64,000 nucleotides of DNA. Source: a virus. Its lineage: Duplodnaviria > Caudoviricetes. Position 1 is the stretch's first letter; the number at the start of each line of letters is the position of its first letter. Position numbers and translations under genes: made by a program. The notes beneath the pieces are model-generated. The model was not told the DNA's origin. It ran no database searches and saw only the letters and a list, made by a program, of their open reading frames with translations. The stretch is taken from positions 59,504 through 123,503 of IMG/VR virus record IMGVR_UViG_3300023105_001451, one strand, 5' to 3'. This document shows, in pieces, positions 1 to 23,200 of the stretch.

Positions 1-585
1 ATAATTCAAACCTTCAAACTCTCCTTCACAACTACGAGTAATGTCAAACAAATCTAGAATATCGTAATTATAGTATTGTTGTATAATCCAGTCTTTCTTA
101 GTATACACGAAAGGATGCACAATGTCAACTCCCATATGTTTCATATGTAAAGGTAATACACCTTCATCTCGTTCGGGTAATCCGCCGGGTACGTCTTCTG
201 GATTTTTAGTAACAGCAGCATACCATGCATCTAAGTTATAATTATGTATTACCCATTCGTTGTGAGCTCTAAGTATAATTCTATTGCCAGGTTTTACTGC
301 GCCGTATTCATCAGTAATAAAAGTTGTATTAGGTTCTTCCATTTCGGGCGGTATAAAGTTTTCTAAATGTTCTATACGATTAGGAAAATTATACTTAAAC
401 CATCTAACAACTTGCTGAGCAACATGACGCTGCCAAGGTCGTGTTTTCCACATTCGTATTTGTGTAGTAAAATAAATGTCTGCATTAGTTTCTTTTAATA
501 TAAGATATGCTAGTAAAGCACTGTCTGCTCCGCCGCTTAAACTAATACCTATACGCTTCCACCCAGGATTCAAGAACAAGTTCAT
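1..585 (-). CDS. QueC-like PP-loop ATPase (adenine nucleotide alpha-hydrolase); 3' end runs off the window; absent from the ORF track
   Basis: Manual translation from ATG 585: MNLFLNPGWKRIGISLSGGADSALLAY...HPFVYTKKDWII...TRSCEGEF, open to position 1. SGGxDS PP-loop and QueC-like TxSC motif. Confidence 0.75.
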   Translation of the reverse strand, partial: MNLFLNPGWKRIGISLSGGADSALLAYLILKETNADIYFTTQIRMWKTRPWQRHVAQQVVRWFKYNFPNRIEHLENFIPPEMEEPNTTFITDEYGAVKPGNRIILRAHNEWVIHNYNLDAWYAAVTKNPEDVPGGLPERDEGVLPLHMKHMGVDIVHPFVYTKKDWIIQQYYNYDILDLFDITRSCEGEFEGLNY

Positions 586-590
586 GCTTA

Positions 591-607
591 TACTTATTCG
601 TTAAATA
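591..607. promoter_or_regulatory. Back-to-back late promoters: TAAGTA (-, 591-596) and TAAATA (+, 602-607)
   Basis: Each box resembles the T4 late TATAAATA core and lies exactly 5 nt before an ATG (585 and 613). Confidence 0.7.
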
Positions 608-612
608 TCTGT

Positions 613-1266
613 ATGCTAGAGAGAACTGAATATACTGTAAAAGTTCCTAAAATTAACGAAGATTTTGAAAATTTTAAAACTACGTTAAATCAGCCAACTG
701 GAGATTTTTTCTACGATCCGTGGGAAATTAAACCAGAGTATAAAGGAACAGTTTGGGAAAAATTGCTTAAGAGCTTGCCTGAGCCTCACGGCGAAGCTCG
801 TGTAATTGTAATGCAACCTGGTACTACTTATATGGCTCATGCTGATATTGATAATCGTTGGCATCTAAATTTACAAAGCGAACAGGCTTATCTAATTAAT
901 TTAGTTTCTCAAGATATGCATTTATTAGAAAAAGACGGATACTGGTATTATATGGATGCAGGAAATATACACACTGCGTCAAACTATGGTAGTATTCCTA
1001 GAATACAGTTAGTTGTAAGAGAACTATTAACAGCAACAGAAATAGAAGAACTTGCACAAGTTACAATTAAACCGGCAATGCCGCAATATGATTATAGATA
1101 TAAATTTGACAATATAATTAGCCCATGGCTTAATACTGCTAATAAAGATGGTGTTATAAAAGATTTTGAGGTTGACGGCGAAGTTGTTAAATTTAAAATA
1201 CCAATTACAGAATTAAGTTTAAAATTGCCAAAGGAGTTTCGCATTGAAGTGGAAACCATATCTTAA
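613..1266 (+). CDS. Asp/Asn beta-hydroxylase-like Fe(II)/2OG oxygenase
   Basis: HAD motif, distal HTASN, then RIQLVV; cupin-type pattern. Confidence 0.7.
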   Translation: MLERTEYTVKVPKINEDFENFKTTLNQPTGDFFYDPWEIKPEYKGTVWEKLLKSLPEPHGEARVIVMQPGTTYMAHADIDNRWHLNLQSEQAYLINLVSQDMHLLEKDGYWYYMDAGNIHTASNYGSIPRIQLVVRELLTATEIEELAQVTIKPAMPQYDYRYKFDNIISPWLNTANKDGVIKDFEVDGEVVKFKIPITELSLKLPKEFRIEVETIS

Positions 1267-1918
1267 ACTAAGCGAAGAAGGCAATCCGTGCATGGCTCAA
1301 CAAACTTACGAGCCTTTAGTTAGTGAAGACGGAAAAACTTTCTGTAAAAATTATGCTTGGCCGAATGATTATCAATATATGGAAACAAAAGATCGTCCGT
1401 TATATACTGACGAAGTTGTTGAATGGTTTTGGTTTAATGAACTTACTTATTTAGAGGTCTTTAAAGATAAACCTTACGCACCTGAAGTTACTGATATTGA
1501 TTATGTTAACAGAAAAATATATCTTAAATGGAATGAGGCAAGTTGTAATCAAATAATTTATAGTGGGCTGCCTTGGCCGCAAAATGTTTGGCGTCAACAA
1601 ATTAAAGATATTATGCTTGACATTTACAATGAGGGCGTATATAAATTAACAATGTATCCTCACTGTCATTATATAAGCAGTGAAGGAAACATGCGAGCAA
1701 TTGACTGGTACGGATGTGTACCTGTTGAAGAGCCTTACATCGAAGAAAAATATATGCAAGGCATAATTCATGAAACTGCTCAATTTCGTTTAGAAGAAAC
1801 AGGTGCAGCGGTAGACAATGTTTTAAATTTAGAGACTATGTTTAAGAGAAGTTTAGGCACTCATGTAAAATGGGGAGACCAAGATATGAGCTACATATAC
1901 AAGGAAATTTTTAAATGA
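1244..1918 (+). CDS. Protein-kinase-like fold protein (divergent)
   Basis: FCK..NELTYL..APEV..IDWYG pattern; TTG start after AAGGAG; paralogue of 7955-8644. Confidence 0.45.
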   Translation: MKWKPYLKLSEEGNPCMAQQTYEPLVSEDGKTFCKNYAWPNDYQYMETKDRPLYTDEVVEWFWFNELTYLEVFKDKPYAPEVTDIDYVNRKIYLKWNEASCNQIIYSGLPWPQNVWRQQIKDIMLDIYNEGVYKLTMYPHCHYISSEGNMRAIDWYGCVPVEEPYIEEKYMQGIIHETAQFRLEETGAAVDNVLNLETMFKRSLGTHVKWGDQDMSYIYKEIFK

Positions 1919-2772
1919 ATATTGTAGTGTTTGGACATAGTATTGGATTAGACGACGGAGTTCAAGAAGATCATTGGACTCGTTATTTAGAAAAAAGACT
2001 TAGTACAAATGTAGTTAATAAATGTGTAGCACAATGTAGCGAAGAACGCATTTTGTTTAATTTGAAAAAAACAAAAAATATTGATTTGGCAATAATTATT
2101 CATACTCCTCCTTGGGCAATATTTGTTCCAACATGGGACAGAGACATACAAAACGTAGACAAGGATAGTTTTAATAGTAAAGTTGATATTTTAAAATTTT
2201 TAGATAGTGCAGGAATTACAGGTACTGAAGAAATAGATGAAGCTGTTGATTGGTATTCCGTAGTATCTAACGGAATGATACAAGAATTGTTTAAACGCTA
2301 TGGTATTGAATTTGAAGAGATGACTCCTGGTATACAAGAGTTTTTAGATAATGGAAATACTACAATTATTAAACAAGAATTTTTAGAACTAGTTGAAAAG
2401 AGTAAAGGAGATGTAGAATACTATAATAGTTTATTTGATGCATTAACTTTATTTAGAAAACATTTATATCATCCGGATTTGGCAATGAATAGATATTACG
2501 GAGCTCTAATACAAATTGATCAATATATAACAGCAATGAATATACCGTGTATTCATTTGCTAGATAATCCTGCTTGGTATCCTAAATGGTTTAAATTTAC
2601 ATCAGGTATTGTTGATACAGAATTACAAAAAACAAAACGAGAAACAGGACCTTATTATGTTGGGTATAATAAATCCTGTAATGCATTAAACAAGGAAGGT
2701 AACGAACTAATATATAATAAAATAGTTGAATTGGCTGCGGGGGCAGGATTCGAACCTGCATTCACGAGTTAA
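1915..2772 (+). CDS. SGNH/GDSL-like protein (degenerate)
   Basis: N-terminal VVFGHS; C-terminal xxLNKEGNELIY; last 13 aa are read antisense over the tRNA-like element. Confidence 0.45.
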   Translation: MNIVVFGHSIGLDDGVQEDHWTRYLEKRLSTNVVNKCVAQCSEERILFNLKKTKNIDLAIIIHTPPWAIFVPTWDRDIQNVDKDSFNSKVDILKFLDSAGITGTEEIDEAVDWYSVVSNGMIQELFKRYGIEFEEMTPGIQEFLDNGNTTIIKQEFLELVEKSKGDVEYYNSLFDALTLFRKHLYHPDLAMNRYYGALIQIDQYITAMNIPCIHLLDNPAWYPKWFKFTSGIVDTELQKTKRETGPYYVGYNKSCNALNKEGNELIYNKIVELAAGAGFEPAFTS

Positions 2773-2808
2773 CCGCCCGCTGCTTTACCAACTGTTAGCT
2801 ACCCCGAC
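2732..2808 (-). tRNA. Aberrant or pseudo tRNA-Asn(GTT) with encoded CCA
   Basis: Minus strand: GTCGGGG TA GCT AACAGTTGGTAA AGC A GCGGG CGGTTAA CTCGT GAAT GCAGG TTCGAAT CCTGC CCCCGCA G CCA. Perfect T arm and G73, but G at position 33 and the first two acceptor pairs mismatched. Confidence 0.75.
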
Positions 2809-2867: not shown

Positions 2868-3443
2868 TTGGCAACGTATTTAGGAACAACAGACGGCATC
2901 ATTGACTGGGATCCTATTGTAGAGATTTGTAAGGATTGTACAACAGGAGACTACAATTCAGTTAAATCAGTTGTTGAACGATCTGAAGGCAATTGGCGTG
3001 ATAATCCAGAGCTACTAGGAAGGTACCATGAGATTATTAATACCTGGGATGATGCTGGATATAACTTAGAAGAAATTGAATGGTGGGACTATTATCCCGG
3101 TGAACATTTTGATATAGAAATACAAAACAAATTTGCAAAAATAGTAAATGCAGAACCGTTAAGAGTTTTTGTAAGTGATGTACGTCCTGGAACAAACGTA
3201 CCATATCATTGGGACGTTGAAGACAATGAAGAAGAATGGTTAGCACAAGGAGAACTAAAACGCTGGGTTTGCTTTATGGATAAGCCTCGCTGGGGTAGTG
3301 TGTTAATATTAGAAGACAAAGCATTTCATAATGTGCCACAAGGTGAAATATGGGAATGGGATAATTACAGAAGTTATCACGCAGGAACAAGTTGCGGTAT
3401 ACATCATCAATATTTGTTTCATTTTTTAGGGAGACCCAAATAA
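2868..3443 (+). CDS. Cupin-fold Fe(II)/2OG oxygenase
   Basis: PYHWD...YHAGT; paralogue of the next gene; TTG start after GAAGGA. Confidence 0.65.
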   Translation: MATYLGTTDGIIDWDPIVEICKDCTTGDYNSVKSVVERSEGNWRDNPELLGRYHEIINTWDDAGYNLEEIEWWDYYPGEHFDIEIQNKFAKIVNAEPLRVFVSDVRPGTNVPYHWDVEDNEEEWLAQGELKRWVCFMDKPRWGSVLILEDKAFHNVPQGEIWEWDNYRSYHAGTSCGIHHQYLFHFLGRPK

Positions 3444-3973
3444 TGGTAAGAAGCATTGGAGTATGTAACACAATCAACTGGGATGCAGTAATTAAAGACT
3501 GCGAAAATTCAAATCCTGAGTATGTAGGACCTAGTCATAAGCGTGGAGATAATATACCTGGTTTAGATCCTATATTAGACATGTGGGAAGAAGCAGGATA
3601 TAAAACTGTACACGAAGGTGGAACTGCTGGATGGGATATGTTTATTCCAGGTAAACAATTTGACACAAGCATAGTAGATGCTTGGAACGAACACTACAAT
3701 TTAGACTGTAAAAATGTTTGGATAAGCAGAGTATGGCCCGGACGGTTTGCTCCTATACATTGGGACGTACACGATGACGAAGAAAACTTACCCGAATGTG
3801 CAAGATATCACTCGCATATTGGTAAGCCTCAGTGGGGACATATTTTTATTGTAGACGATAAATGTTTGTATAATAGAACACAAGGTGAAACGTTTAGATG
3901 GGAAAATAGAAAATTATGGCATGCAGGAACTAACTGTGGTACAACACCTAAATATATATGGAATGCTTGGTAA
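3443..3973 (+). CDS. Cupin-fold Fe(II)/2OG oxygenase
   Basis: PIHWD...WHAGT; start reassigned to the ATG at 3443 (TAATG overlap). Confidence 0.65.
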   Translation: MVRSIGVCNTINWDAVIKDCENSNPEYVGPSHKRGDNIPGLDPILDMWEEAGYKTVHEGGTAGWDMFIPGKQFDTSIVDAWNEHYNLDCKNVWISRVWPGRFAPIHWDVHDDEENLPECARYHSHIGKPQWGHIFIVDDKCLYNRTQGETFRWENRKLWHAGTNCGTTPKYIWNAW

Positions 3974-3982
3974 GGAGAAAAG

Positions 3983-4579
3983 ATGGAAAAAGTATTATCA
4001 GAGATGCCTAGAATATCAGTTTTTACTGATGTACTTACAGATGAAGAATCAGATTACTATGTAAAAAAATACAGTGAACTAGGAATGAATCCTGATGCAG
4101 GATTAGAATCACGAGAGCAAACAAATGGGCAAATCACAGAAGAAGTAGAACAGCGTAGTATTAGCTGGGATACTGATAACGAAGATAGAGAGTTTTTTAA
4201 AAAACGTCTTGCAGAAACAGTTGGATTTCCGATTGAACATATAGAAGCAGGCGATATTTATAGATATCAACCTGGACAGTATTTTGGTCTGCATCACGAC
4301 TTTCCTTACACTCCAGAAGAAATTGCATATTATGAAAAAGGTGGTGACAGAAAAGCAACAGGTATTTTTTGGTTAACAGGTGACTTCGAAGGCGGTACTT
4401 GTGATTTTCCTGAACTAGATGTATCAGTAAAGCCTGTAAAAAATGGTATGTTTTATTTTGAATATGACTACGAAGATGAAGCAATTAATCAGTCAACTAT
4501 ACACGAAGCAATGCCCATAACAAAGGGAGAAAAATGGATCGCAGCATTTTTTATTGCTAATGGTCCAAGAGTAGAATGA
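3983..4579 (+). CDS. Prolyl 4-hydroxylase-like 2OG-Fe(II) oxygenase
   Basis: RYQPGQYFGLHHD, GGTCDFP, HEAMPITKGEKWI are typical P4H motifs. Confidence 0.85.
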   Translation: MEKVLSEMPRISVFTDVLTDEESDYYVKKYSELGMNPDAGLESREQTNGQITEEVEQRSISWDTDNEDREFFKKRLAETVGFPIEHIEAGDIYRYQPGQYFGLHHDFPYTPEEIAYYEKGGDRKATGIFWLTGDFEGGTCDFPELDVSVKPVKNGMFYFEYDYEDEAINQSTIHEAMPITKGEKWIAAFFIANGPRVE

Positions 4580-5019
4580 AGTTTTATATAACAGGTAGTA
4601 CAAAGGGGCTAGGAGAATATCTAGCAAAATATTTTCATTGTAAGAGCTTTAACAAGCCTCTTGCATTGAATGAAGATATTGATTTAATTTGTGATAGTAT
4701 TGATGAAGGTAGCACTGTTATATTAAATGCACATGCAAGTCAATTAGAGTATGTAGAACGTTTGAAAGATAAGTGTAAACTAGTTGTTATGGGCAGTATT
4801 GCAGCAGTAAATTTTGATCCTGAAATGGCAGAATACAGCAAAGAAAAATGGGAACTGGAAAAAAACGTACAACAGTTAGCATTACACAACAAGTATCCTA
4901 TGTTGTATTTACAGTTAACGAGTAGCAGTTATCGTGATTACCAAATGATTGCAAACAGTATAAAGTTTTGGTTAGAAAATCCAGACATAACTTTTATAGG
5001 GTATAATATAAATGACTAA
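4576..5019 (+). CDS. Short SDR/Rossmann-fold protein
   Basis: ITGSTKGLG, LNA, GS, YxxxK (YSKEK). Confidence 0.7.
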   Translation: MKFYITGSTKGLGEYLAKYFHCKSFNKPLALNEDIDLICDSIDEGSTVILNAHASQLEYVERLKDKCKLVVMGSIAAVNFDPEMAEYSKEKWELEKNVQQLALHNKYPMLYLQLTSSSYRDYQMIANSIKFWLENPDITFIGYNIND

Positions 5020-5608
5020 GAAAATAGTAATTACAGGACATACCGGCGGCATTGGTAAAGCAATATATGATAAATTTACAGAAGTAAGTTGTCATGAAAT
5101 TATAGGTATGAGTCGCAGCAATGGTTATGACATCGAATCAGACTTTGACAAAGTTGTAGAAGAAGCAATTGGTGCAGAAATTTTTATTAACAATGCTTAT
5201 AGAGACGAACAGCAACTAAAACTGTTTCATGCACTTAAAGATAAAGTTGATATGATGGTTGTTATGGGCAGTGTAAGTAGACATTATCCCGAACTTATTC
5301 CTACAGATTATGTGCATGACAAACAAGAACTAGCAGAAGCATGTCGTTTAGAAAGCATCAATCCAAACGGTATTCCTATATTACATTTAGATTTAAGTTT
5401 TATCGAAGGCACTGAAATAAACAACAATGACCCTACAGCATTTAAAAGCGATTATAATACTAGTTTTGAAGATATAGTTGACACAATTATATTTTGGGCT
5501 CAAAAGCCGAGCATACGTCAAGTCGAATTTCGTTGGAAGTTAACTGAACAAGTACGTGCAGAATTAGAACGCATTAATCCAAATGTAGATTTTTCAAGAG
5601 TCGAATAA
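5012..5608 (+). CDS. SDR family oxidoreductase
   Basis: ITGHTGGIG, INNA, YVHDK. Confidence 0.75.
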   Translation: MTKKIVITGHTGGIGKAIYDKFTEVSCHEIIGMSRSNGYDIESDFDKVVEEAIGAEIFINNAYRDEQQLKLFHALKDKVDMMVVMGSVSRHYPELIPTDYVHDKQELAEACRLESINPNGIPILHLDLSFIEGTEINNNDPTAFKSDYNTSFEDIVDTIIFWAQKPSIRQVEFRWKLTEQVRAELERINPNVDFSRVE

Positions 5609-6268
5609 ATGTCGTTCTAATCTAATACAAATAAAAAGCCAATCTTCGTCTGACGGGTTCCATAATGCATGTGGACTATTTGTTGCATCAAATATGTATG
5701 CATCATACAATCCCATATTATCGACTCTATCGTCTACTTTTAACTTAACTACGTCATTAGACTTTATGTTGACTAACAATGAATAGTTAGGACGTCCATC
5801 GTCTCCGTCAGTGTGCGTTGGCAATATACTAGAAGGAGAAAACCAAAAAATTAATGCTTCTCTAGCAATATCACATTTATCTAGATAAAGATTTTGTTCT
5901 TTTAATAAATTTTTTACATACGGGTGCGGCCAATCATAATCTGCATGATATGAATAAATTACCCTCCATTCGGATTCTTGTTTTAATAAGTATTGACTTT
6001 CTTTAGGAAAACGGCATAACAACTCTTCTGTTAGTTCGTCACTTGCTGTTTCGCATGATGAAGTAAGATGTGCTATATTGTCTTTATAATGTAAAAAACT
6101 CCAAGATTCAAAATCATCATATGTTGGATTTTTTAATATGTTTTCTTTAATGTCATCAACATCTAAGTTTTTAAAGTGTGATTTTACATACGTTACTAAT
6201 TCTTTTACTTTAGATAACGCATCACCTTCTAAAACTTTTTTAACTCCGATATCTTGTTTTATATCCAT
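5594..6268 (-). CDS. Asp/Asn beta-hydroxylase-like oxygenase
   Basis: LPTHTD...FDATNSPHALWNPSDEDW. Confidence 0.7.
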   Translation of the reverse strand: MDIKQDIGVKKVLEGDALSKVKELVTYVKSHFKNLDVDDIKENILKNPTYDDFESWSFLHYKDNIAHLTSSCETASDELTEELLCRFPKESQYLLKQESEWRVIYSYHADYDWPHPYVKNLLKEQNLYLDKCDIAREALIFWFSPSSILPTHTDGDDGRPNYSLLVNIKSNDVVKLKVDDRVDNMGLYDAYIFDATNSPHALWNPSDEDWLFICIRLERHLFDS

Positions 6269-6816
6269 CGTTCAAATCTTTCTAAATTAGCAAAAAACTT
6301 TTCTGGATGTATTTCCCATACAGTTTGATCTGTGTGTCTATAGTGTACATCTTTAATTTTAGATACAATACCTAGTTTAGCAAGTGTAGGAAAGTAATAG
6401 CTATGCACAAGGCGTTGACTTGCTTCTTTACTAGCATTTGATGTAGCAAACATTCGTCCACGTCCTGCAACCCATTCTATGCACTGCGGCAGCAAAAATT
6501 GGTCTGTTAAATTTTGATGTTCTGCTACAAGACGTTTAGGAGTAATTAATCCTGCGCCCTTTCGTTCTTCTGCAAACGTACACACACGAGTTAGTATGCG
6601 ATATCCGCCTGGCATAACATCATCAAAAGAGTGTGCAGCAACACTACCTACAGCATTATTGTTATTGTAAAGTATCCAAGCATTCCATTCACGTTCATTA
6701 CGAAAGCAATCTATCATTGCTTTTTGACTAGAGTTATTAACAAACCCTCGACGACTTGCTTCGTTATAAAAATTAGTTAAGTCTAAACCTTCGTGCCATT
6801 CAACAGTTTTATACAT
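6259..6816 (-). CDS. Hypothetical protein, possible GNAT-fold acyltransferase
   Basis: WILY..AVGSVAAH..RILTRVC pattern is GNAT-like; weak. Confidence 0.35.
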   Translation of the reverse strand: MYKTVEWHEGLDLTNFYNEASRRGFVNNSSQKAMIDCFRNEREWNAWILYNNNNAVGSVAAHSFDDVMPGGYRILTRVCTFAEERKGAGLITPKRLVAEHQNLTDQFLLPQCIEWVAGRGRMFATSNASKEASQRLVHSYYFPTLAKLGIVSKIKDVHYRHTDQTVWEIHPEKFFANLERFERWI

Positions 6817-8644: not shown

Positions 8645-8649
8645 GCAAA

Positions 8650-8666: not shown

Positions 8667-8671
8667 TATGT

Positions 8672-16769: not shown

Positions 16770-17846
16770 TTGAAGGTAACTGAAATACCAGGGCTTGGGT
16801 CATTTGGGCATTATATTGACGATGTTGACTTTGATAATTTGTCTCGAGAAGAATGGTTTGAAATTGGTAAATTACATTTAAAAGGTTTAGTAACAATACT
16901 TAGAAATGTAAAAATTTCTAGAGATGACTACGTAGATAGAATAAGACAATGGGGGCCGGGAAAAGGAACACGTAATTCAAGAGCACATTTTAAAATGAAA
17001 TATGGAGAAGATTTTGATCCAAAAGATGAAGGTGCTTTTGACAAATTTAATGTAAGTGAAGAAGATAGAAAATATTTAATTTTTAAAAGACATTTTGTTG
17101 ATAAGACAGAAGGTGGAAACTTTCTTACTCGTGTTAGTGGAGAAAAAGATGCTGACGGTAATTCACTAGGTGCGTTTTCTGATGGTGAGTTGCTTTGGCA
17201 TAGTAATGAGTCGAGCGAATTAACTTTTGCTCCTGAAGTAGCATTATTAGGTTTTCAACACATGAAAGGCAGTAGTACCGGATTTGTACAAAGCGTTGAT
17301 TTATATCATTCATTTAGTGAAAGTTTCCGTAGTGAGTTAGACGAAATGGTTATAATTCACGAATATATTCCAGGCGGCATCAACGACAGAGAACTTACTG
17401 ATCCTAATTTAGCTCATGTTCTTAGAATGGAATTTTGTCAATTTGATGGCGCAGAAGTTCCTATGGTACTAACAAGTCCAGGAGGTAATAAAGGATTACA
17501 TTATACTACAAATACTGCAACAGGTATAAAAGGAATGAGTAAACAAGAATCAGATAAGATTTTTAAAATTATCGATGAAGCATTGTTTACAGAAAAATAT
17601 GTTTATGACCACAAATATGAATCAGACAGCGACTTATGTTTATTTGACAATAGTGTTACATTACATAGACGTAAAGATCCAGGACATCCTAACAGATTAG
17701 CATATAGAATACAATATGATCCTTCTAATTTACTAGATAGTCCGTGGTATCCGTACAATCACTTTCCTGAATATGCAGAAAAATATAAACAACAAACACA
17801 CGAACTTATAGAACTTACTGGTCTTAAGGATTTTAAACTACCATAA
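16770..17846 (+). CDS. TauD/TfdA family dioxygenase
   Basis: LLWHSNE, STGF, LFDNSVTLHRR..RLAYRI; TTG start after AAGGAG; upstream TAAATA at 16735-16740. Confidence 0.8.
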   Translation: MKVTEIPGLGSFGHYIDDVDFDNLSREEWFEIGKLHLKGLVTILRNVKISRDDYVDRIRQWGPGKGTRNSRAHFKMKYGEDFDPKDEGAFDKFNVSEEDRKYLIFKRHFVDKTEGGNFLTRVSGEKDADGNSLGAFSDGELLWHSNESSELTFAPEVALLGFQHMKGSSTGFVQSVDLYHSFSESFRSELDEMVIIHEYIPGGINDRELTDPNLAHVLRMEFCQFDGAEVPMVLTSPGGNKGLHYTTNTATGIKGMSKQESDKIFKIIDEALFTEKYVYDHKYESDSDLCLFDNSVTLHRRKDPGHPNRLAYRIQYDPSNLLDSPWYPYNHFPEYAEKYKQQTHELIELTGLKDFKLP

Positions 17847-19762
17847 TGAAAAAACGAGTATACCTATTTCAAGTGAACTACCAAATGGGTCACGGACAAT
17901 ATACTAGTCTGTGGCTTCCGTATAGCGTTGCGTCTGTATGGACATATGTAAATCAGTTTAAAGAAATACAAGATAACTTTGAAGTACAAGAATGCATTTT
18001 TATGCGTGAAGAATTTGAAGATGTATTAGCTAGATTAGATAATCCTGAGTTATGCTTGTTTAGTCACTACTTGTGGAATGATAACTATAATTTAGAATTA
18101 GCAAAGCGCATCAAAAATAAATGGCCCGAATGTATAATTATATTCGGTGGTCCGCAGGTTGATGAAATAGGGTTTAACTTTACAATGGCAAATCCTTTTG
18201 TAGACAGTATTGTAATTAATGAAGGTGAAGTAAGTCTGCATCATTTGCTAAACGATTATTTAAAAGATGATCTACGTCCGATTTATCAAATTGTAAAAAG
18301 AGTAGATCCAGCTGGGTTGCCTAGTCCTTTTGTTGACGGAGATATTTTACAAAAAGTGGTAGATGACAATCCGGGCATCAAATGGGCAACTTGTTTAGAG
18401 ACAAATAGAGGTTGTCCTTTTAAGTGTAGTTTTTGTGATTGGGGAAGTTTAACGCAATCAAAAATTAAACAATTTGATCTTACAAAGGTTTACAGAGAAT
18501 GGGACTGGATTGTTAATAACGGTATCGAATATGTACATATTGCAGATGCTAATTTTGGTGTATTCTATGACAGAGACAAAGAAATAGTTGATTACATAGT
18601 CAAAAAGAAAAAAGAAACAGACTATCCGCACAATGTAAGTGCTACATGGTACAAAAACAGTGCAGCAAAAATGATTGGACTTGCAAAAATACTCGAAGAA
18701 GTAAATCTTAATAAAGGATTTACGCTAAGTGTTCAAAGTATGAATGAAGAAACTCTTGAGTCTATTGAACGTAAAAATATGGAAATGTCTAAACTAGCAG
18801 ATATGTATGCAGAATGTGACAAGCAAGATGTTGCATACTATACTGAATTTATTTTAGGATTACCTTTTGAAACAAGACAAACTTGGCGCGAAGGATTATG
18901 TGCTGCTATAGAAGCAGGATGTCATTTCTTTATTGATGTGCATCCTTTAGAAGTTTTAAAGAACAGTAGATTTGCAAAACAAGTAACAGAGTTTAATTAC
19001 GAAGTGTTTAAGTTTACAGTTGTAATGCCTAATCAAATATCACGTATTCCTGAAATGCACAATTATGTTATTGCTAGTGAGTTTATGTCAAGGCAAGACT
19101 ATATTGATAGTTGGATGTGGGCATGGAATGTGTTACATTTCCATCATTATGCGTGGACACAAGGAATAGCAAAATTTGCACGTAATCACTTAGGTATTTC
19201 TTACTTAGACTTTTATGAAGACTTGCTTGAAAATTGCATTAAAAAAGATGAGTTCTTGAATATGCTATATGAGCAACAAGAGCATCAATTAAAAGACTTT
19301 TTCTGGAATACAGAAAGTGATGTTGTATTTGATAACGATAATGTGATTGTTGTACTAAATCAAATCGAATGGCACAAAAATAGAGAGCGAGTACTTGATA
19401 CTATACAAACATGGGCTAGAGAATATCTAAAAGACTTACCAAACGATCTAGTGGAAGAAGTACTTAAATTTTCTGAACTGTATCTTGTTAACAAAGAAAG
19501 AGTTGTTGACATATCCGGAGATTTCAGCTATAATATAAATGAAGTTTGTAATGAAGGTGCTACATTAATTAAAGAAGATGTGTCGTATACATTTAAAAAT
19601 AAGTTAACTTGGGTAGATGATAAAGACTTTAAAGATAAACTGTTTTATAAAAATAGAAACGGATTTAGCATCCTAAAAGTGGAAAGACAAAATAATGCCG
19701 GAATACGTAAAGACAATAAAAAACTTTTGGAAACAAGAATTAGCCAGCCACAAGTATGCTAG
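17846..19762 (+). CDS. Cobalamin-binding radical SAM protein
   Basis: N-terminal B12 domain (FSHYLWN..FGGPQ..EGE), ETNRGCPFKCSFCDW, DANFG, ILGLPFET. Confidence 0.9.
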   Translation: MKKRVYLFQVNYQMGHGQYTSLWLPYSVASVWTYVNQFKEIQDNFEVQECIFMREEFEDVLARLDNPELCLFSHYLWNDNYNLELAKRIKNKWPECIIIFGGPQVDEIGFNFTMANPFVDSIVINEGEVSLHHLLNDYLKDDLRPIYQIVKRVDPAGLPSPFVDGDILQKVVDDNPGIKWATCLETNRGCPFKCSFCDWGSLTQSKIKQFDLTKVYREWDWIVNNGIEYVHIADANFGVFYDRDKEIVDYIVKKKKETDYPHNVSATWYKNSAAKMIGLAKILEEVNLNKGFTLSVQSMNEETLESIERKNMEMSKLADMYAECDKQDVAYYTEFILGLPFETRQTWREGLCAAIEAGCHFFIDVHPLEVLKNSRFAKQVTEFNYEVFKFTVVMPNQISRIPEMHNYVIASEFMSRQDYIDSWMWAWNVLHFHHYAWTQGIAKFARNHLGISYLDFYEDLLENCIKKDEFLNMLYEQQEHQLKDFFWNTESDVVFDNDNVIVVLNQIEWHKNRERVLDTIQTWAREYLKDLPNDLVEEVLKFSELYLVNKERVVDISGDFSYNINEVCNEGATLIKEDVSYTFKNKLTWVDDKDFKDKLFYKNRNGFSILKVERQNNAGIRKDNKKLLETRISQPQVC

Positions 19763-20180
19763 AGTTGTTCCATTTGTTGCCAAAAACTTTGATCATTTAG
19801 ATAGAGAATATTACAATAAAGATCATTTGTTACAAAGTTTTAATGAAGAACTATCCTGTGCCGATGAATTTAAAGGCGCCTTAGACGCTGTACAAGCGTC
19901 TGTAAGCTGGACTAATATACTACCTAATGTAATACTACCTACGCATAAAGATACCTTTTATACGCTACGACAGGAGCATAATGTAGAATTAGATGACTGT
20001 TTTCGTTATTTAATTTTTTTAGAAGACTGGGTATTTGGACATTATGTAGGTTTTGAAAAGAAAAACATCACACACTGGAGAGCTGGTGATGTGTGGAAAT
20101 TTACAGGACATGAAATGCATTACGGAGTAAATGCAAGCAATGTTTCGTTTCATACTTGTCAAGTGAGTACGTTTGAATGA
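19695..20180 (+). CDS. Cupin-fold Fe(II)/2OG oxygenase
   Basis: LPTHKD...MHYGVN..TCQV. Confidence 0.65.
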   Translation: MPEYVKTIKNFWKQELASHKYARVVPFVAKNFDHLDREYYNKDHLLQSFNEELSCADEFKGALDAVQASVSWTNILPNVILPTHKDTFYTLRQEHNVELDDCFRYLIFLEDWVFGHYVGFEKKNITHWRAGDVWKFTGHEMHYGVNASNVSFHTCQVSTFE

Positions 20181-20914
20181 AATTTGGAATCTTAGGCTAC
20201 GGATATGTAGGCAAAGCAACACACAAAGGTTTGCTAAAAGATGAAAAGTGCATAGTGTACGATACTATGTTTGATGTAGATAAAAGTATTATCTACGAAG
20301 CAGACACTGTTTTTATATGTATTCCTACAATTACAGATAAAGATATTAATATTATTATTGACGAGATTAAAGACCTACAAGAACACAATCCCGATGTGCA
20401 AATTGTTATACGCAGTACATTGCCTTTGGGTGCATGTGATAAAATACAAGTAGAAGTAGGACCTATTATCTATATTCCAGAATTTTTACGTGAACGCTAT
20501 TGGGATACAGATTGTTTAAAACGTCCTTTAGTTGTAGGCTGTGACGTTGCGAACTTTTTACCAGACTGGCTATTGGAAGAAGAAATACACGAGTGTTGTA
20601 CTAACGAAGCAGAGCTAGTAAAGATGTTTGCTAATAACTTTGCTATAATGCGTATTGCATTTGCAAACGTATTTTATGATTTATCTGAAAGCGTAGGTGC
20701 AGATTATAATGTCGTAAAAGATATGTTTTTTAAAATACAACAAGATCAAACATACATGGAAGTACCAGGACATGACGGTACAAGAGGTTTCGGCGGCAAA
20801 TGCTTGCCCAAAGACTTAGACTTTCTTATCGAAACATTAGATAAACACAATATAGATCAAAATTGGTTTAAGCACATTAGAGAGTTGAACAAGGGATGGA
20901 AAGAAAAGTTCTAG
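20177..20914 (+). CDS. ugd: UDP-glucose/GDP-mannose 6-dehydrogenase (short form)
   Basis: GYGYVG, ICIPT, RST, PEFLRE, AELVK, GFGGKCLPKD. Confidence 0.9.
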   Translation: MKFGILGYGYVGKATHKGLLKDEKCIVYDTMFDVDKSIIYEADTVFICIPTITDKDINIIIDEIKDLQEHNPDVQIVIRSTLPLGACDKIQVEVGPIIYIPEFLRERYWDTDCLKRPLVVGCDVANFLPDWLLEEEIHECCTNEAELVKMFANNFAIMRIAFANVFYDLSESVGADYNVVKDMFFKIQQDQTYMEVPGHDGTRGFGGKCLPKDLDFLIETLDKHNIDQNWFKHIRELNKGWKEKF

Positions 20915-21780
20915 TAACAGGCGCCAGCGGACTAATTGGCAGAGAACTATGCAAGCAACTTATAAAAGATTTTTATGTTGTTGCACTAGATAATGGGTTT
21001 AGATCTACGGCTATACCTAAGTGTAATGAATTTATAAAAGAAGATATTAATACATATGTATCTTACGTAGCCAATGACTTTGATTACATCTTTCATATGG
21101 GAAACATAAATGGTACAAAGTATTTCTACGAAATACCTAATAAACTTATAGAAAATAATATACGTGCAGACTTTTCTATATTTAAATTTGCAGAGTTAAA
21201 CACTAGCTGTAAGCTAATATACGCTTCGTCTAGCGAAGTTGTAGCAGGTACAGACACTTATCCTACAGTAGAAGAAACAGACGTTACAATACGCAATATA
21301 CAAAACCCTAGATGGAGTTATAGACTAGGCAAACTCGTAGGTGAAAACTATCTTGCTAATAGCTCTATAGATAATCTTATAGTAAGATTCTTTAACGTAT
21401 ACAGTGAACATAGTTTTAGTGGACATTTTGTTGCAGACATTGCAGAAAAGATTAAGAATGACAATTATGAACTTATTGGTGCAAATGAAACTCGTAGTTT
21501 TTGTTATGTCGAAGATGCTGTTGACGCTGTAATTAATTTAAAAGATGTTTCGAACGAAGTCATTAATGTAGGTTCTGATGAAGAAATACAAATATTAGAT
21601 GCTGCAAATATTATTGCAGAATCTTTAGGCAAGTTAAATGTACCTTGGATTATTAAAGAAGGACTTACTGGAAGTGTAAAAAGAAGAAACCCGGATGTAA
21701 GTTTACTTAAAAAACATTACCCCGGGTTTAAACCTCAAAAATTTAAAGATGTATTAGTTAAAATAGATCTTGCCAAGTAG
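20896..21780 (+). CDS. NAD-dependent epimerase/dehydratase
   Basis: VTGASGLIG, ASSSEV, YRLGK, RFFNVY, RSFCYVED. Confidence 0.9.
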   Translation: MERKVLVTGASGLIGRELCKQLIKDFYVVALDNGFRSTAIPKCNEFIKEDINTYVSYVANDFDYIFHMGNINGTKYFYEIPNKLIENNIRADFSIFKFAELNTSCKLIYASSSEVVAGTDTYPTVEETDVTIRNIQNPRWSYRLGKLVGENYLANSSIDNLIVRFFNVYSEHSFSGHFVADIAEKIKNDNYELIGANETRSFCYVEDAVDAVINLKDVSNEVINVGSDEEIQILDAANIIAESLGKLNVPWIIKEGLTGSVKRRNPDVSLLKKHYPGFKPQKFKDVLVKIDLAK

Positions 21781-23200
21781 TGCCATCATAACACTGTGCT
21801 TTATTAGTTGAAGCAAGATAAATCATCATTCCAGCTGCTGGTGCAGTAATAGCTGCATCTCTTGCTGTTGGATCAGCATATGTAAATAAAGTTGCTGCGC
21901 CAAAGAAATTTGTTTGCTGTGCTGAATTAACAACTATACCTGGAACAACGTTACCTGTTCCGTCTCCAACACCAAAGATAAGTCTTCCTGGAATACCGCC
22001 TGCTAATGGAGTGTCGTCTACCTGGGCACTCATTGCTGCTACACCCGCTGATGCGCCATTTGCGTCAGCACCAAACCACGAAAGTGTAACTACTTCGTCG
22101 TCTGCTTGTAATGCAGCTGGAGAACCTTGTGTTCCTCTTGATCTTTGAAGTATTAGCTGTTGTCCAACATCACTATCATTAAAGCCTTCGATATTAAACA
22201 ATGCATATGCATCATCAGCACTGCCGTCTGTAATTATTCTTATGCCTGCTTTTTCACCGTCTCTGTTATCACCTTGTAATAATATTGTACTTCCGGAAAA
22301 AACACTTGTAGTTATTTCTTCATTGTTAATACGTCCAACAATAGTACTTGATGTATCATCAATAATTATAGACGAATCACCTCCGAATACTGTTCCTTGT
22401 ATAGAACCGTAAACATCGCCTACTACTCTACCAAAGTGTGTTCCGTTAGTGTTTCCGTAAAATGCACCGTTTGCAGTAATATCTCTACCAGTAATGTCAG
22501 CAGCTGGGATATTGGTATCGCTACCAATAACTACACCATCTAGTGTACCGCCTGAAATCGTAGCACTATCTGCTTCAAGTTGTGTAAATGTTGATGTTCC
22601 TGTTGATGCAATATCACCTTGTACATCGCCTGTAACATCTCCAACAAGATTACCTTGTATAGAACCAGTAGCACTAATAATTGTTGCACTTAATGTATCA
22701 GTTAACGAATCGTAAATTATTGTACTGTCTGTACTAACAATTTGTGAGGTAGAAATAGAATCAGCAGTAAATTGTCCTGAAATTTCGCCGCCTTCTGCAA
22801 ATATAGCATTCCATCTTCTGTTAGTAGACCCTAAGTTGAATTGTCCGTCTAGTGCTGGTCTAAGTGAGGAGTTAATCACACCAGCTACATTGACTACATC
22901 TGCATCTTCGTCACCTAAGTTAATTGTACCTGTTGCAGTAATAGTACCATCAATATTAATATTACCTACGCCGACAATGTTATTGTTATTTAGGTCTAAG
23001 TTGCCACCCAATTGTGGAGATGTATCACCGACAACTTCTGTAAAAGCATCTGCATCTGTTGGTCCTACCAGTACACCTCCAACTGTAGCACCGTCACCGA
23101 CAAACAACTTTTTAGTATCTGTTGTGTATATCAGTTCACCTTGTAACGGTGTTACAATCAATCTATCTGCATCTGGACCACGTCTTACTAGTAAAGCCAT
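21758..23200 (-). CDS. Tail-fibre-like virion protein with Mtd-N-type N-terminus
   Basis: GELIYTTDTKKLFVGDG, DTSPQLGGNLDLN, G/T/D-rich beta repeats, C-terminal GMMIY..QCYDGTTW; late promoter at 23235-23240 and GGAG RBS. Confidence 0.7.
   Translation of the reverse strand: MALLVRRGPDADRLIVTPLQGELIYTTDTKKLFVGDGATVGGVLVGPTDADAFTEVVGDTSPQLGGNLDLNNNNIVGVGNINIDGTITATGTINLGDEDADVVNVAGVINSSLRPALDGQFNLGSTNRRWNAIFAEGGEISGQFTADSISTSQIVSTDSTIIYDSLTDTLSATIISATGSIQGNLVGDVTGDVQGDIASTGTSTFTQLEADSATISGGTLDGVVIGSDTNIPAADITGRDITANGAFYGNTNGTHFGRVVGDVYGSIQGTVFGGDSSIIIDDTSSTIVGRINNEEITTSVFSGSTILLQGDNRDGEKAGIRIITDGSADDAYALFNIEGFNDSDVGQQLILQRSRGTQGSPAALQADDEVVTLSWFGADANGASAGVAAMSAQVDDTPLAGGIPGRLIFGVGDGTGNVVPGIVVNSAQQTNFFGAATLFTYADPTARDAAITAPAAGMMIYLASTNKAQCYDGTTWQDLF

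What the first reader, a model, noticed from the sequence alone, without database searches (positions are those of the whole stretch)
1..23200. Late-expressed 22-kb phage tailoring-enzyme island next to a tail-fibre gene: candidate virion post-translational decoration or biosynthetic system
Seen: about 28 consecutive enzyme-like genes, with no replication or structural gene among them. They comprise about 10 Fe(II)/2OG or cupin oxygenases (AspH-like, P4H-like, TauD), 5 radical SAMs with auxiliary Cys clusters, a B12 radical SAM, 2 kinase-like, 2 SDR, 2 SGNH, GNAT-like, GT-like, Ugd, epimerase and a PP-loop ATPase. Every divergent operon head carries a late-type TAARTA box, and I noticed no sigma70 consensus at those heads, unlike the replication region. 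The island converges on an Asp/Thr/Ser/Gly-rich fibre gene. Known: AspH and P4H enzymes hydroxylate protein residues; B12 radical SAMs are often methyltransferases; SPASM/twitch radical SAMs often act on peptides or sugars. Inference: a pathway acting during morphogenesis that hydroxylates virion proteins and adds a heavily tailored glycan or small molecule. Alternatives are host-surface remodelling or a metabolite. No precursor peptide was evident.
Basis: partly seen in the sequence, partly recalled or inferred. Interest (0 to 1): 0.85.

Follow-up and report, generated by a model that had tools for sequence, protein, structure and literature searches.

The report
Phage radical-enzyme tailoring island beside fibre genes
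An abundant, uncultured marine jumbo phage carries a conserved ~43-kb block of about 49 soluble enzymes (16 radical SAM, at least 11 iron/2-oxoglutarate oxygenases, sugar-type enzymes) between its tail-fibre genes; it most likely builds a heavily modified carbohydrate, but the product and its target are unknown.

Summary
Window 1-21780 is the right half of a ~43-kb island (genome 38024-81283) in a 123.5-kb fragment of a T4-related jumbo phage of about 360 kb.

The window part has 28 consecutive genes:
- 6 radical SAM enzymes: 2 N-terminal-twitch NF033640 members, 1 B12 type, 3 others.
- 11 Fe/2OG-fold oxygenases, five of them shown only by structure models or profile comparison.
- 2 kinase-like proteins and 2 short Rossmann proteins.
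- A PP-loop ATPase, a short Ugd-like protein and an epimerase.
- Not confirmed beyond motifs or weak leads: SGNH, GNAT-like and GT-like labels.

TAARTA-N5-ATG boxes sit on both strands of the three compact divergent heads; the fourth head has the box at other spacings. At the one head checked in relatives (7955/8672) the box is conserved. No gene of the replication block has one.

The island is a conserved but mosaic pathway. It is found in at least 175 IMG/VR contigs and lies between fibre genes in close relatives. In one complete distant genome it has no recognisable fibre neighbour.

The best cellular homologues are radical SAM arrays in Bdellovibrionota. There they sit beside GT2 glycosyltransferases, a carbamoyltransferase, AsnB, Ugd and an MFS transporter.

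My reading is carbohydrate tailoring on a cytoplasmic acceptor, possibly virion fibres. Direct protein hydroxylation is not supported. The scan noted this same island in overlapping windows.

The parts
1..585 (-). g040: PP-loop ATP pyrophosphatase (ORF begins 89 nt before the window start); operon head
   Evidence: SGGADS motif and a C-terminal CxxCxxC. The profile hits ThiI, Asn synthetase and TtuA only weakly. The QueC hit is sub-threshold. Present in 61 of 80 relatives.
583..615 (.). Bidirectional head with TAARTA-N5-ATG on both strands
613..1266 (+). g041: AspH-family Fe/2OG oxygenase
   Evidence: PF05118, 24.1 bits against a cut-off of 22.6.
1244..1918 (+). g042: minimal protein-kinase-like fold, paralogue of g052
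   Evidence: hhalign 98.6% to the g052 family. The merged profile hits Bud32 and TTK weakly.
1915..2772 (+). g043: unknown; SGNH-like N-terminal motif only; no homologue in the 80 related loci compared
   Evidence: No Pfam or PHROG hit. 0 of 80 relatives. Sequence.
2732..2808 (-). tRNA-Asn(GTT) inside the island
   Evidence: ARAGORN; Rfam RF00005, 39.2 bits.
2868..3443 (+). g044: Fe/2OG oxygenase fold (g045 family)
   Evidence: Alignment A5, HxD...H; model and Foldseek.
3392..3973 (+). g045: Fe/2OG oxygenase fold
   Evidence: AF2 pLDDT 91. Top hits are vCPH 5c5t, 7v4o, P4H, AlkB and AspH.
3983..4579 (+). g046: 2OG-Fe(II) oxygenase
   Evidence: PF13640, E=3.7e-10.
4576..5608 (+). g047 and g048: two short Rossmann/SDR-like paralogues
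   Evidence: hhalign 99.9% to each other and about 90% to the epimerase g067. Weak PF01370 hit.
5594..6268 (-). g049: AspH-like oxygenase
   Evidence: hhalign 96% to the g061 profile.
6259..6816 (-). g050: conserved core protein of unknown fold
   Evidence: 62 of 80 relatives. No Pfam or PDB hit.
6816..7958 (-). g051: N-terminal-twitch radical SAM
   Evidence: NF033640, 190 bits against a cut-off of 170.
7955..8644 (-). g052: kinase-like, core gene
   Evidence: The profile hits TTK kinase at E=6.5e-4. 74 of 80 relatives.
8642..8674 (.). Bidirectional head with TAARTA-N5-ATG on both strands; conserved in relatives
   Evidence: Forward box in 54 of 81 and reverse box in 49 of 81 relatives, with a variable N5.
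8672..9487 (+). g053: probable Fe/2OG oxygenase; the gene used to find relatives and the best conserved among them (mean 79% identity)
   Evidence: AF2 pLDDT 70; Foldseek hits PHD2, ALKBH5 and AspH. 175 IMG/VR relatives.
9487..10170 (+). g054: unknown, with an FFGDSFS (GDSL block I) motif
   Evidence: Sequence only. No Pfam hit.
10154..10642 (+). g055: Fe/2OG oxygenase fold (g045 family)
10626..11618 (-). g056: radical SAM
   Evidence: PF04055, 40.6 bits.
11602..12345 (-). g057: AspH-family oxygenase
   Evidence: PF05118, 26.9 bits.
12337..12381 (.). Bidirectional head with TAARTA-N5-ATG on both strands; implies starts at 12339 (minus strand) and 12379 (plus strand)
12352..13209 (+). g058: radical SAM
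   Evidence: PF04055, 34.6 bits.
13206..14462 (+). g059: unknown; possible GT-B/GT10-like glycosyltransferase (lead only)
   Evidence: Atlas nearest named clusters carry PF00852, score 0.77. The PF00852 HMM finds nothing. No PDB hit.
14459..15376 (+). g060: N-terminal-twitch radical SAM
   Evidence: NF033640, 197 bits. Pfam places SPASM at residues 4-62, ahead of rSAM at 97-251.
15354..15854 (+). g061: AspH-family oxygenase
   Evidence: PF05118, 32.5 bits.
15825..16688 (-). g062: radical SAM-like
   Evidence: CxxxCxxC at residue 15. PF04055 is sub-threshold. Paralogue of g056 and g058.
16770..17846 (+). g063: TauD/TfdA-family dioxygenase
   Evidence: PF02668, E=3.5e-20.
17846..19762 (+). g064: B12-binding radical SAM, probably a C-methyltransferase
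   Evidence: PF04055 plus PF02310. The nearest NCBIfam model is KedN5, 187 bits against a cut-off of 700.
19695..20180 (+). g065: Fe/2OG oxygenase fold (g045 family)
20177..20914 (+). g066: short UDP-glucose/GDP-mannose dehydrogenase-like protein; no C-terminal-domain hit
   Evidence: PF00984, 63 bits, and PF03721, 27 bits. Absent from L006-L012.
20896..21780 (+). g067: NAD-dependent NDP-sugar epimerase/dehydratase
   Evidence: PF01370, E=5.7e-29.
21758..23200 (-). g068: fibre-like protein; the right border of the island in this phage and in close relatives
   Evidence: Mtd_N domain. G/T/A/D-rich. Homologues sit at the same border in L006-L012, L024, L034, L048 and G001.

Best explanation
The island is one conserved, co-transcribed, entirely cytoplasmic tailoring pathway.

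Shown:
- About 49 soluble enzymes are dominated by two C-H-activating superfamilies: 16 radical SAM enzymes and at least 11 Fe/2OG oxygenases.
- The remaining genes include a Ugd-like protein, an epimerase, short SDR-like proteins, kinase-like proteins, a PP-loop ATPase and a MCD/GNAT-fold protein; glycosyltransferase-like proteins rest on leads only.
- Operons start at conserved TAARTA-N5-ATG boxes.

Inferred:
- The genes are transcribed late, partly as leaderless mRNAs and partly as a continuation of the fibre operon.
- The substrate is carbohydrate-type: NDP-sugars or a growing glycan.
- The twitch rSAMs and the B12 rSAM epimerise, dehydrate or C-methylate it. The oxygenases hydroxylate it. 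The kinase-like, PP-loop and acyl enzymes add phosphate, amide and acyl groups.
- There is no membrane, polyprenol or export component, so the product stays in the cytoplasm on a soluble acceptor.
- My best guess for the acceptor is the virion's fibres, as in chlorovirus, mimivirus and mycobacteriophage virion glycosylation.
- Gain and loss of paralogues between relatives would then diversify the virion surface.
For: - Enzyme families.
- No predicted TM segment in any island protein.
- A conserved core (g031, 32, 34, 36, 37, 39-42, 44-46, 48, 51-53, 55, 57, 59) is kept at 30-74% identity even in the complete 364-kb relative G002. It is present in at least 175 IMG/VR contigs.
- Layout is fibre genes, island, fibre gene in this phage, in G001 (100% complete), in G004 and in G005. 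g068 homologues sit at the border in L006-L012, L024, L034 and L048.
- Promoter box: (0 of 35 replication-block genes against 22 of 91 others, p=4.6e-4).
- Carbohydrate context of the cellular homologues: the module g033-g030/23-g034-g031-g032 occurs at 30-51% identity in Bdellovibrionota chromosomes. Its neighbours there are two soluble GT2s (12-15 loci), a short SDR, a B12-rSAM, a NodU/CmcH-type carbamoyltransferase, AsnB, Ugd, PMT_2 and MFS.
- The nearest NCBIfam model to the B12 rSAM is KedN5, a family of methylcobalamin-dependent rSAM C-methyltransferases; that KedN5 acts on a sugar is my recollection, not a tool result.
- g023 and the C-terminus of g030 are GT2-like at sub-threshold level.
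Against: - No glycosyltransferase in the phage island passes a curated threshold.
- Ugd and the epimerase are accessory genes, absent from L006-L012.
- The island core in G002 is not next to recognisable fibre genes.
- Only 1 of the 75 genome loci fetched has a fibre-like protein next to the rSAM array.
- The bacterial clusters carry an MFS transporter and a carbamoyltransferase, which fits a secreted small glycoside as well as a glycan does.
- Late timing rests on analogy with the T4 late promoter only.
- The substrate of NF033640 enzymes is unknown, and I found no paper on it.
Confidence: 0.35

Rival explanations
1. The pathway makes a free small molecule in the infected cell, such as an aminoglycoside-, nucleoside- or oligosaccharide-type compound. 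Its role would be host takeover, blocking superinfection or countering a defence. It would not decorate the virion.
For: - The enzyme mix resembles aminoglycoside and nucleoside antibiotic clusters: twitch and B12 rSAMs, Fe/2OG and TauD-type oxygenases, kinase-like proteins, SDRs, GT-like proteins and an amidoligase. This resemblance is from my own knowledge.
- One of the top structural neighbours of the g045 family is a nucleoside-antibiotic hydroxylase, 7v4o.
- The bacterial homologue clusters include MFS exporters and a carbamoyltransferase.
- G002 keeps the core away from fibre genes.
Against: - The phage island has no exporter and no resistance gene.
- Late-type promoters and co-orientation with the fibre operon are odd for a takeover factor.
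- The strong mosaicism between close relatives is more typical of surface structures.
Confidence: 0.25
2. The enzymes modify protein or peptide side chains directly. Targets would be virion proteins or an unrecognised precursor. Chemistry would include hydroxylation of Asp, Asn, Pro or Lys, rSAM epimerisation, cross-linking or C-methylation, and phosphorylation. This would be a polytheonamide-like or RiPP-like logic.
For: - PF05118 AspH-family hits and P4H-like folds.
- SPASM/twitch rSAMs give weak matches to many peptide maturases.
- Bud32/TTK-like kinase fold.
- Position next to fibre genes.
Against: - No precursor-sized conserved ORF was seen in the tightly packed island, and no RRE, protease or transporter appeared in the Pfam or NCBIfam tables.
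- No collagen-like or Pro-rich repeats; fibre proteins with 0-4 Cys, which argues against EGF-type AspH sites although that motif was not searched for.
- PF05118 also contains lipid hydroxylases (LpxO, OlsC; from my own knowledge), so the family does not imply a protein substrate.
- The bacterial context is glycosyltransferase-rich.
Confidence: 0.2
3. The enzymes hypermodify the phage DNA, for example by elaborating the 7-deazaguanine base whose genes lie at window 32-47 kb, or an oxidised pyrimidine.
For: - Oxygenase, kinase, GT and PP-loop combinations occur in DNA base-modification systems (from my own knowledge).
- The complete relatives G001 and G002 have no canonical QueC, and g040 is a PP-loop enzyme with a QueC-like Cys cluster.
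Against: - The g040 profile hits ThiI, AsnB and TtuA rather than QueC.
- The island is separate from the replication and deazaguanine block, which has none of the TAARTA boxes.
- The scale (16 rSAMs) is far beyond what known DNA modification systems need.
- Bacterial homologues sit in GT2/MFS contexts.
Confidence: 0.07
4. The enzymes remodel the host surface. Modified NDP-sugars would be fed into the host's LPS or capsule machinery.
For: - Ugd-like and epimerase genes.
- The precedent of LPS-type genes in cyanomyoviruses (from my own knowledge).
Against: - No phosphoglycosyl transferase, flippase, polymerase or any membrane protein.
- Late-type promoters in a lytic T4-like phage leave little time for a benefit.
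- Ugd and the epimerase are accessory genes.
Confidence: 0.08
5. The island is a hyperplastic region that collects unrelated morons with no common function.
For: - Content is strongly mosaic between relatives, and there are unique genes such as g043.
- The position next to tail-fibre genes is a classical plastic region in T4-like phages (from my own knowledge).
Against: - About 20 core genes are kept together across 30-74% identity, even after relocation in G002.
- Operons are tightly packed, often with overlapping stop and start codons, and share conserved promoter boxes.
- The same multi-gene module occurs in Bdellovibrionota.
Confidence: 0.03

Closest known systems
Virus-encoded virion glycosylation machinery (chlorovirus PBCV-1 capsid glycans, Mimivirus fibril glycans, mycobacteriophage capsid and tail glycosylation; Freeman et al. 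2023 as cited in PMC12619734)
   Same: Soluble, virus-encoded sugar-nucleotide and transferase-type enzymes with no lipid-carrier or export step. Gene content is clade-specific and variable. The genes are linked to virion surface structures.
   Different: Those systems are built from GTs, methyltransferases and NDP-sugar enzymes. None is known to contain arrays of radical SAM and Fe/2OG enzymes. Here no GT passes a curated threshold, and no glycan has been observed.
NCBIfam NF033640, N_Twi_rSAM (twitch domain-containing radical SAM protein; uncharacterised)
   Same: Eight island proteins score above the family cut-off. They have the Cys-rich twitch domain N-terminal to CxxxCxxC.
   Different: The family has no known substrate. 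The phage carries eight diverged paralogues in one locus, which is an expansion otherwise seen here only in Bdellovibrionota arrays.
Aminoglycoside and nucleoside antibiotic biosynthetic clusters (BtrN, GenK/GenD1, KedN5, AprD4, KanJ, PolH-type chemistry)
   Same: They combine twitch and B12 rSAMs, Fe/2OG oxygenases, kinases, SDRs, GTs and carbamoyl or amide-forming enzymes acting on sugars. KedN5 is the nearest NCBIfam model to the B12 rSAM. 7v4o is among the top structural hits.
   Different: No member passes an equivalog cut-off. No aminotransferase, cyclitol or nucleoside scaffold enzyme, exporter or resistance gene was recognised. The genome is viral and the promoters are late-type.
Proteusin/polytheonamide-type RiPP clusters
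   Same: Many rSAM (including B12) and Fe/2OG enzymes acting iteratively on one substrate.
   Different: No precursor peptide, leader-recognition (RRE) domain, protease or transporter was found.
2OG-Fe(II) oxygenase-rich hyperplastic islands of T4-like cyanomyoviruses
   Same: A T4-related genome (gp23 in the relative G001; gp43-type polymerase). A plastic region near tail-fibre genes rich in 2OG oxygenases of unknown role.
   Different: The scale is about 43 kb. The radical SAM expansion, the conserved multi-gene core and the shared module with Bdellovibrionota are not described for cyanophages.

Membership tests
Radical SAM superfamily | CxxxCxxC cluster motif and a PF04055 match above the gathering score | tested here: met
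   Fifteen PF04055 matches in the genome, 14 of them above cut-off and one (g026) below it; g026 is over the NF033640 cut-off instead. All 15 lie in the island; g062, the 16th, is not among them and scores only 18 bits by hmmscan. All 16 have the motif.
NF033640 N_Twi_rSAM | Whole-protein score of at least 170 bits, with the auxiliary-cluster (twitch) Cys motif N-terminal to the rSAM core | tested here: met
   g025, 26, 27, 28, 34, 39, 51 and 60 score 190-388 bits. In g060 Pfam SPASM lies at 4-62, ahead of rSAM at 97-251.
Class B (cobalamin) radical SAM methyltransferase, KedN5 subfamily | An N-terminal B12-binding domain plus an rSAM core; NF033712 score of at least 700 | tested here: not met
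   The architecture is present (PF02310 27.6 bits, which is below its 32.1 cut-off; PF04055 41 bits). NF033712 gives only 186.6 bits. It is class-B-like but not a KedN5 member.
Fe(II)/2OG oxygenase superfamily | Double-stranded beta-helix fold with an HxD/E...H iron triad | tested here: met
   Pfam above cut-off for g041, g046, g057, g061 and g063. The g045 family has an invariant H123-x-D125...H177 and a DSBH model with pLDDT 91. g053 is weaker: pLDDT 70, TM about 0.33. 2OG-binding residues were not assigned.
AspH proper (EGF-domain Asp/Asn beta-hydroxylase) | A protein substrate with disulfide-bonded EGF-like CX[DN]X4[FY]XC sites | not tested
   The CX[DN]X4[FY]XC motif itself was never searched for. 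Indirect evidence against: fibre proteins g011-g018 and g068 have 0-4 Cys, and g012 has 9 Cys in 5333 aa.
Collagen prolyl 4-hydroxylase system (vCPH type) | Collagen-like (GXY)n or Pro-rich repeat substrates encoded by the virus | tested here: not met
   No (G..)6 or Pro-rich repeat in any ORF of the 123.5-kb fragment. The rest of the genome was not available.
RiPP biosynthetic cluster | A precursor peptide gene, a leader-recognition (RRE) domain, and usually a protease or transporter | tested here: not met
   The genes are tightly packed, many with overlapping stop and start codons, and no conserved small ORF was seen between them; ORFs under 50 aa were not scanned. The Pfam and NCBIfam tables show no RRE or peptidase. 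No TM protein.
Virus-encoded virion glycosylation system | Glycosyltransferases and NDP-sugar enzymes encoded by the virus | tested here: inconclusive
   NDP-sugar enzymes are present (g066, g067). For GTs there are only leads: g030 C-terminus PF00535 at E=1.3e-3 and 14.9 bits; Atlas leads for g023 and g059; PF00852 and PF01501 find nothing.
Virus-encoded virion glycosylation system | A glycan demonstrably attached to virion proteins | not testable with these tools
   Needs purified virions, glycan staining and MS.
Bacterial surface-polysaccharide locus (Wzx/Wzy or ABC type) | An initiating phosphoglycosyl transferase, a flippase or transporter, and a polymerase (all membrane proteins) | tested here: not met
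   No hydrophobic 19-residue segment in g019-g067, apart from one borderline window in rSAM g025.
QueC (7-cyano-7-deazaguanine synthase) | PF06508 above 22 bits | tested here: not met
   g040 scores 17.2 bits over the C-terminus only. It is not found in the genome scan. The family profile hits ThiI, AsnB and TtuA, not QueC.
T4-type late promoter | A TATAAATA-like -10 element without a -35, placed upstream of late (structural) genes | tested here: inconclusive
   TAARTA boxes lie upstream of the fibre genes and the island heads, are conserved in relatives, and are absent from the replication block. No transcript data. gp55/gp33 were not searched. No box lies within 60 nt of the gp23 gene of G001, which sits inside an operon.

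The most novel reading that the evidence does not exclude
An abundant marine jumbo-phage lineage and predatory Bdellovibrionota share a previously undescribed type of biosynthetic system. In it, arrays of N-terminal-twitch radical SAM enzymes and Fe/2OG oxygenases carry out many C-H functionalisations on a glycan. In the phage this product is attached late in infection to the tail fibres. The rapid gain and loss of paralogues then diversifies the virion surface chemically, as a second layer of host-range or anti-defence variation beside fibre sequence variation.
Probability: 0.2. Interest if true: 0.9.

Novelty: new variant of a known kind. Interest (0 to 1): 0.74.

Why it matters
- Radical SAM enzymes are rare in phages, typically only QueE or a viperin-like enzyme (from my own knowledge). 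Sixteen in one locus, together with at least 11 oxygen-dependent Fe/2OG enzymes, points to complex chemistry that no virus is known to perform.
- The lineage is common in ocean metagenomes: 3252 homologues of one enzyme, Tara samples included, and at least 175 IMG/VR contigs. Whatever is made is probably made at scale in the sea.
- The island offers a compact, syntenic set of paralogues for working out the function of NF033640, a named but uncharacterised rSAM family, and of several Pfam-less families (g036, g050, g053, g059).
- If the product decorates the virion, this would add a new kind of virion modification to phage biology.
- If the product is a free metabolite, it would be a virus-encoded natural-product pathway.
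- The shared module with Bdellovibrionota also gives a lead on host or gene-exchange partners.

Tried and rejected
- Megablast of the island and of 40-60 kb, and tblastn of the B12 rSAM and the 905-aa protein, against GenBank phages: no match. Only the DNA polymerase placed the phage, at 42-50% identity to Phosso, Atu_ph07, Vibrio 2.275.O and E. coli jumbo phages of 350-385 kb.
- PHROGs on ten Pfam-less island proteins: nothing.
- Profile-against-PDB searches for g053, g050, g059 and g036: nothing usable.
- GT8 for g020/g021 and GT10 for g059: the HMMs find nothing.
- GNAT-like g050: hhalign to the MCD/GNAT protein g024 gave under 50%.
- g040 as QueC: rejected.
- Collagen-like or Pro-rich substrates: none.
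- Fibre adjacency of the bacterial arrays: 1 of 75 loci only, a bd2133-like MAT fibre in L156. I treat this as chance.
- Riboswitch or other RNA elements: only the tRNA.
- Late-box check upstream of the gp23 gene in G001: uninformative, because the gene lies inside an operon.
- Literature searches for N-terminal twitch rSAMs, and for jumbo phages with radical SAM, found nothing relevant.
- The first genome-contig scan with a wide alignment failed for lack of a conserved stretch.
- The look-up of encoding contigs did not find two bacterial proteins. It was then closed, so the contexts of the distant B12-rSAM loci L014-L018 could not be annotated.

Full report
**Where the window lies.** The window is bases 59504-123503 of a 123,503-bp IMG/VR virus record. 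CheckV rates the record 33% complete, which implies a genome of roughly 360 kb. The family B DNA polymerase (phrog_262) is 50% identical to Sinorhizobium phage Phosso. It is 46% identical to Atu_ph07 and Vibrio phage 2.275.O, and about 42% to E. coli jumbo phages of 350-385 kb. A complete relative, G001 (357.6 kb), encodes a T4-type gp23 capsid protein. Nothing in GenBank phages matches the island at DNA level. The B12 rSAM has no match there at protein level, and the twitch rSAM g034 has only three weak ones (about 24% identity).

**Checking the observation.** My ORF map gives 28 tightly packed genes in window 1-21780, which I call g040 to g067.

Pfam, NCBIfam and genome-wide HMM scans confirm the following:
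- Five radical SAM enzymes plus one B12-binding radical SAM.
- Three AspH-family proteins.
- One 2OG-FeII_Oxy_3 protein and one TauD protein.
- A short Ugd-like protein and an NDP-sugar epimerase.

- The paralogues g044, g045, g055 and g065 align with an invariant HxD...H. Their AlphaFold model has pLDDT 91. It hits viral collagen P4H, a nucleoside-antibiotic hydroxylase, bacterial P4H, AlkB and AspH.
- g053 gives a poorer model (pLDDT 70) whose hits are all 2OG oxygenases.
- g049 matches the AspH-like profile at 96%.
- g042 and g052 are paralogues (hhalign 98.6%) with weak similarity to minimal protein kinases (TTK E=6.5e-4; Bud32 E=0.02).
- g047 and g048 are short Rossmann proteins.
- g040 has the SGGADS PP-loop motif.
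- The SGNH calls (g043, g054) rest on an N-terminal motif only.
- The GNAT-like call (g050) has no support.
- The GT-like call (g059) is only a lead.
- A tRNA-Asn gene lies on the opposite strand at 2732-2808.

**The island is twice as large as reported.** It runs from genome 38024 to 81283 (g019 to g067, about 43 kb). It starts directly after a 5333-aa protein and a set of Collar-domain fibre paralogues, g014 to g018.
- The upstream half adds ten more radical SAMs. The total is 16, of which 8 are NF033640 N-terminal-twitch enzymes above the curated cut-off.
- It also adds a MCD/GNAT-fold protein and a methyltransferase-like protein (motif only).
- It adds GT-A-like proteins. Of these, only g023 and the C-terminus of g030 get a sub-threshold GT2 signal.
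- No island protein has a predicted membrane segment, apart from one borderline window in g025.

**Promoters.**
- TAARTA-N5-ATG occurs 9 times in the window, against 3.2 expected. None of 100 shuffles reaches 9.
- Six of the nine occupy both strands of the three compact divergent heads.
- The fourth head has TAAATA at -13 and -35.
- At the g052/g053 head the two boxes are kept in most of 81 relatives while the five spacer bases vary.
- The same hexamer lies 23-32 nt upstream of fibre genes, ahead of Shine-Dalgarno sequences.
- It is absent from all 35 genes of the replication block (p=4.6e-4).
- Sigma-70-like sites are at the chance level.
- The left half of the island continues the fibre operon on the same strand.
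- By analogy with the T4 late promoter TATAAATA (my own knowledge), this supports late and partly leaderless expression. No transcript data exist.

**Relatives.**
- One enzyme (g034) has 3252 homologues in the 5.8-billion-protein set. The best 120 are at least 73% identical, and many come from Tara and other metagenome sources. One cluster reaches a 354-kb contig.
- g053 retrieves 175 IMG/VR contigs.
- Gene-by-gene comparison shows a core and a variable shell. The core genes g037, g039-g042, g045, g050, g052, g053 and g055 are present in 54-80 of 80 loci.
- The right half, g054-g067, is missing in L048 and L061. Ugd and the epimerase are missing in L006-L012.
- Other relatives add fatty-acid-desaturase-family genes or extra paralogues.
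- In G001 (complete), G004 and G005 the layout is the same as here: fibre genes, island, fibre gene.
- In the more distant complete genome G002 a 24-kb core with 10 rSAMs survives at 30-74% identity, away from recognisable fibre genes. In G003 (80% complete) the island lies about 100 kb from the g014-type fibre genes; its flanks were not examined.
- Taken together, this is a coherent pathway. Its link to fibre genes is frequent but not obligatory.

**Cellular homologues.** A scan of one genome per prokaryotic species gave 75 loci.
- Most of the loci are from Bdellovibrionota, including loci inside complete chromosomes with housekeeping neighbours.
- They hold arrays of up to 8-11 radical SAM genes.
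- They also hold the module g033 - g030/g023 - g034 - g031 - g032 at 30-51% identity, with g037-, g040-, g048- and g057-like genes nearby.
- Their recurrent neighbours are listed below:
  - two soluble GT2 glycosyltransferases;
  - a short SDR and a B12 radical SAM;
  - a NodU/CmcH-type carbamoyltransferase;
  - asparagine synthase, Ugd and a PMT_2 glycosyltransferase;
  - an MFS transporter.
- This is a carbohydrate context. It is the main new evidence on the substrate.
- Only one of the 75 loci has a fibre-like protein, a bd2133-type MAT fibre. I treat that as chance.

**Interpretation.**
The fragment has no collagen-like or Pro-rich repeats, and the fibre proteins have few or no Cys.
- PF05118 also includes lipid hydroxylases (my own knowledge).
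- The AspH-like genes accompany the rSAM arrays in bacteria.
- A RiPP reading lacks a precursor peptide, an RRE domain, a protease and a transporter.
- A DNA-modification reading is weak. g040 is not QueC by profile, and the island is promoter-wise separate from the replication and deazaguanine block.
- Host-surface remodelling lacks every membrane step.

I therefore favour a carbohydrate-type tailoring pathway whose product stays on a soluble acceptor. The virion fibres are the best guess for that acceptor (confidence 0.35). A free glycoside or nucleoside-like metabolite is the main rival (0.25), followed by direct protein modification (0.20).

**Novelty.** I found no paper in the library that describes this island or the substrate of NF033640. 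Virus-encoded glycan machinery is known. An array of 16 radical SAM and at least 11 Fe/2OG enzymes in a virus is not. I file it as a new variant of a known kind and rate it of high interest.

**Limits.**
- Only two structure predictions were available.
- The rest of this phage's genome is not in the record.
- Other first-stage notes of this scan had already flagged the same island in overlapping windows.

Noticed in passing
window 2732-2808 (-): A tRNA-Asn(GTT) gene lies inside the enzyme island on the opposite strand, between g043 and g044. ARAGORN and Rfam both call a standard tRNA.
   Followed up: partly
L123-L196 (genome-contig loci), e.g. L140, L154, L181: Bdellovibrionota chromosomes carry arrays of up to 8-11 radical SAM genes that are homologous to the phage island (g034 46-49%, g032 about 50% identity). 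This suggests gene exchange with these marine jumbo phages, or a host link. Some low-GC 'MAG' hits from other phyla (L146-L150) look like mis-binned phage contigs.
   Followed up: partly
L156:12-4277 (+): A 1421-aa T/G/A/S-rich protein matches the Bdellovibrio MAT fibre bd2133 (PDB 8ond, E=4e-12). It lies directly beside a pair of N-twitch rSAM genes in one Bdellovibrio MAG. It is the only such case among 75 loci.
   Followed up: yes
L013:13697-13921, L058:17427-17651, L144:5316-5531, L146:8675-8899, L148:114-335, L149:6461-6682: A conserved ORF of about 73 aa (consensus ...LRxLQxESARAxxTxEATNNN...FNKxAHHNS..WYKAVIxWYI..YGDLPSKxGPGK...) sits at or just upstream of the g031-like/g034-like genes, directly after the g033-like gene in L013 and L149, in several related contigs. 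It is absent from this phage and its function is unknown.
   Followed up: no
G001 and G002 (complete relatives); window 1-585 and 32784-34518: The complete relative G001 has homologues of g083 (QueE-like) and g084 but no canonical QueC; G002 also lacks one (PF06508). The island's PP-loop protein g040 does not behave as QueC by profile. The deazaguanine pathway may therefore stop at CDG or use the host enzyme.
   Followed up: partly
L025-L027: 6270-7816 (+): Closely related islands carry two adjacent FA_desaturase-family (PF00487) genes among the rSAM genes. This family is usually membrane-bound and is absent from this phage.
   Followed up: no
window 20177-20914 (+): The Ugd-like protein is only 245 aa, and Pfam reported only the N-terminal and central domains for it. 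Short forms (249-283 aa) recur in G002 and in distant phage loci (L014, L016, L017), whereas the Bdellovibrionota homologue is 412 aa. It may not be a standard UDP-glucose dehydrogenase.
   Followed up: no
genome 13688-29689, upstream of the window: A single 5333-aa ORF (g012; acidic, 9 Cys, no short internal repeats) precedes the fibre paralogues. G001 has a homologue at 42% identity.
   Followed up: no
window 59147-59160 and 63339-63352 (-): TAARTA-N5-ATG boxes also precede two genes outside the island, g121 and g125 (phrog_14336, unknown function). This suggests further leaderless late genes.
   Followed up: no
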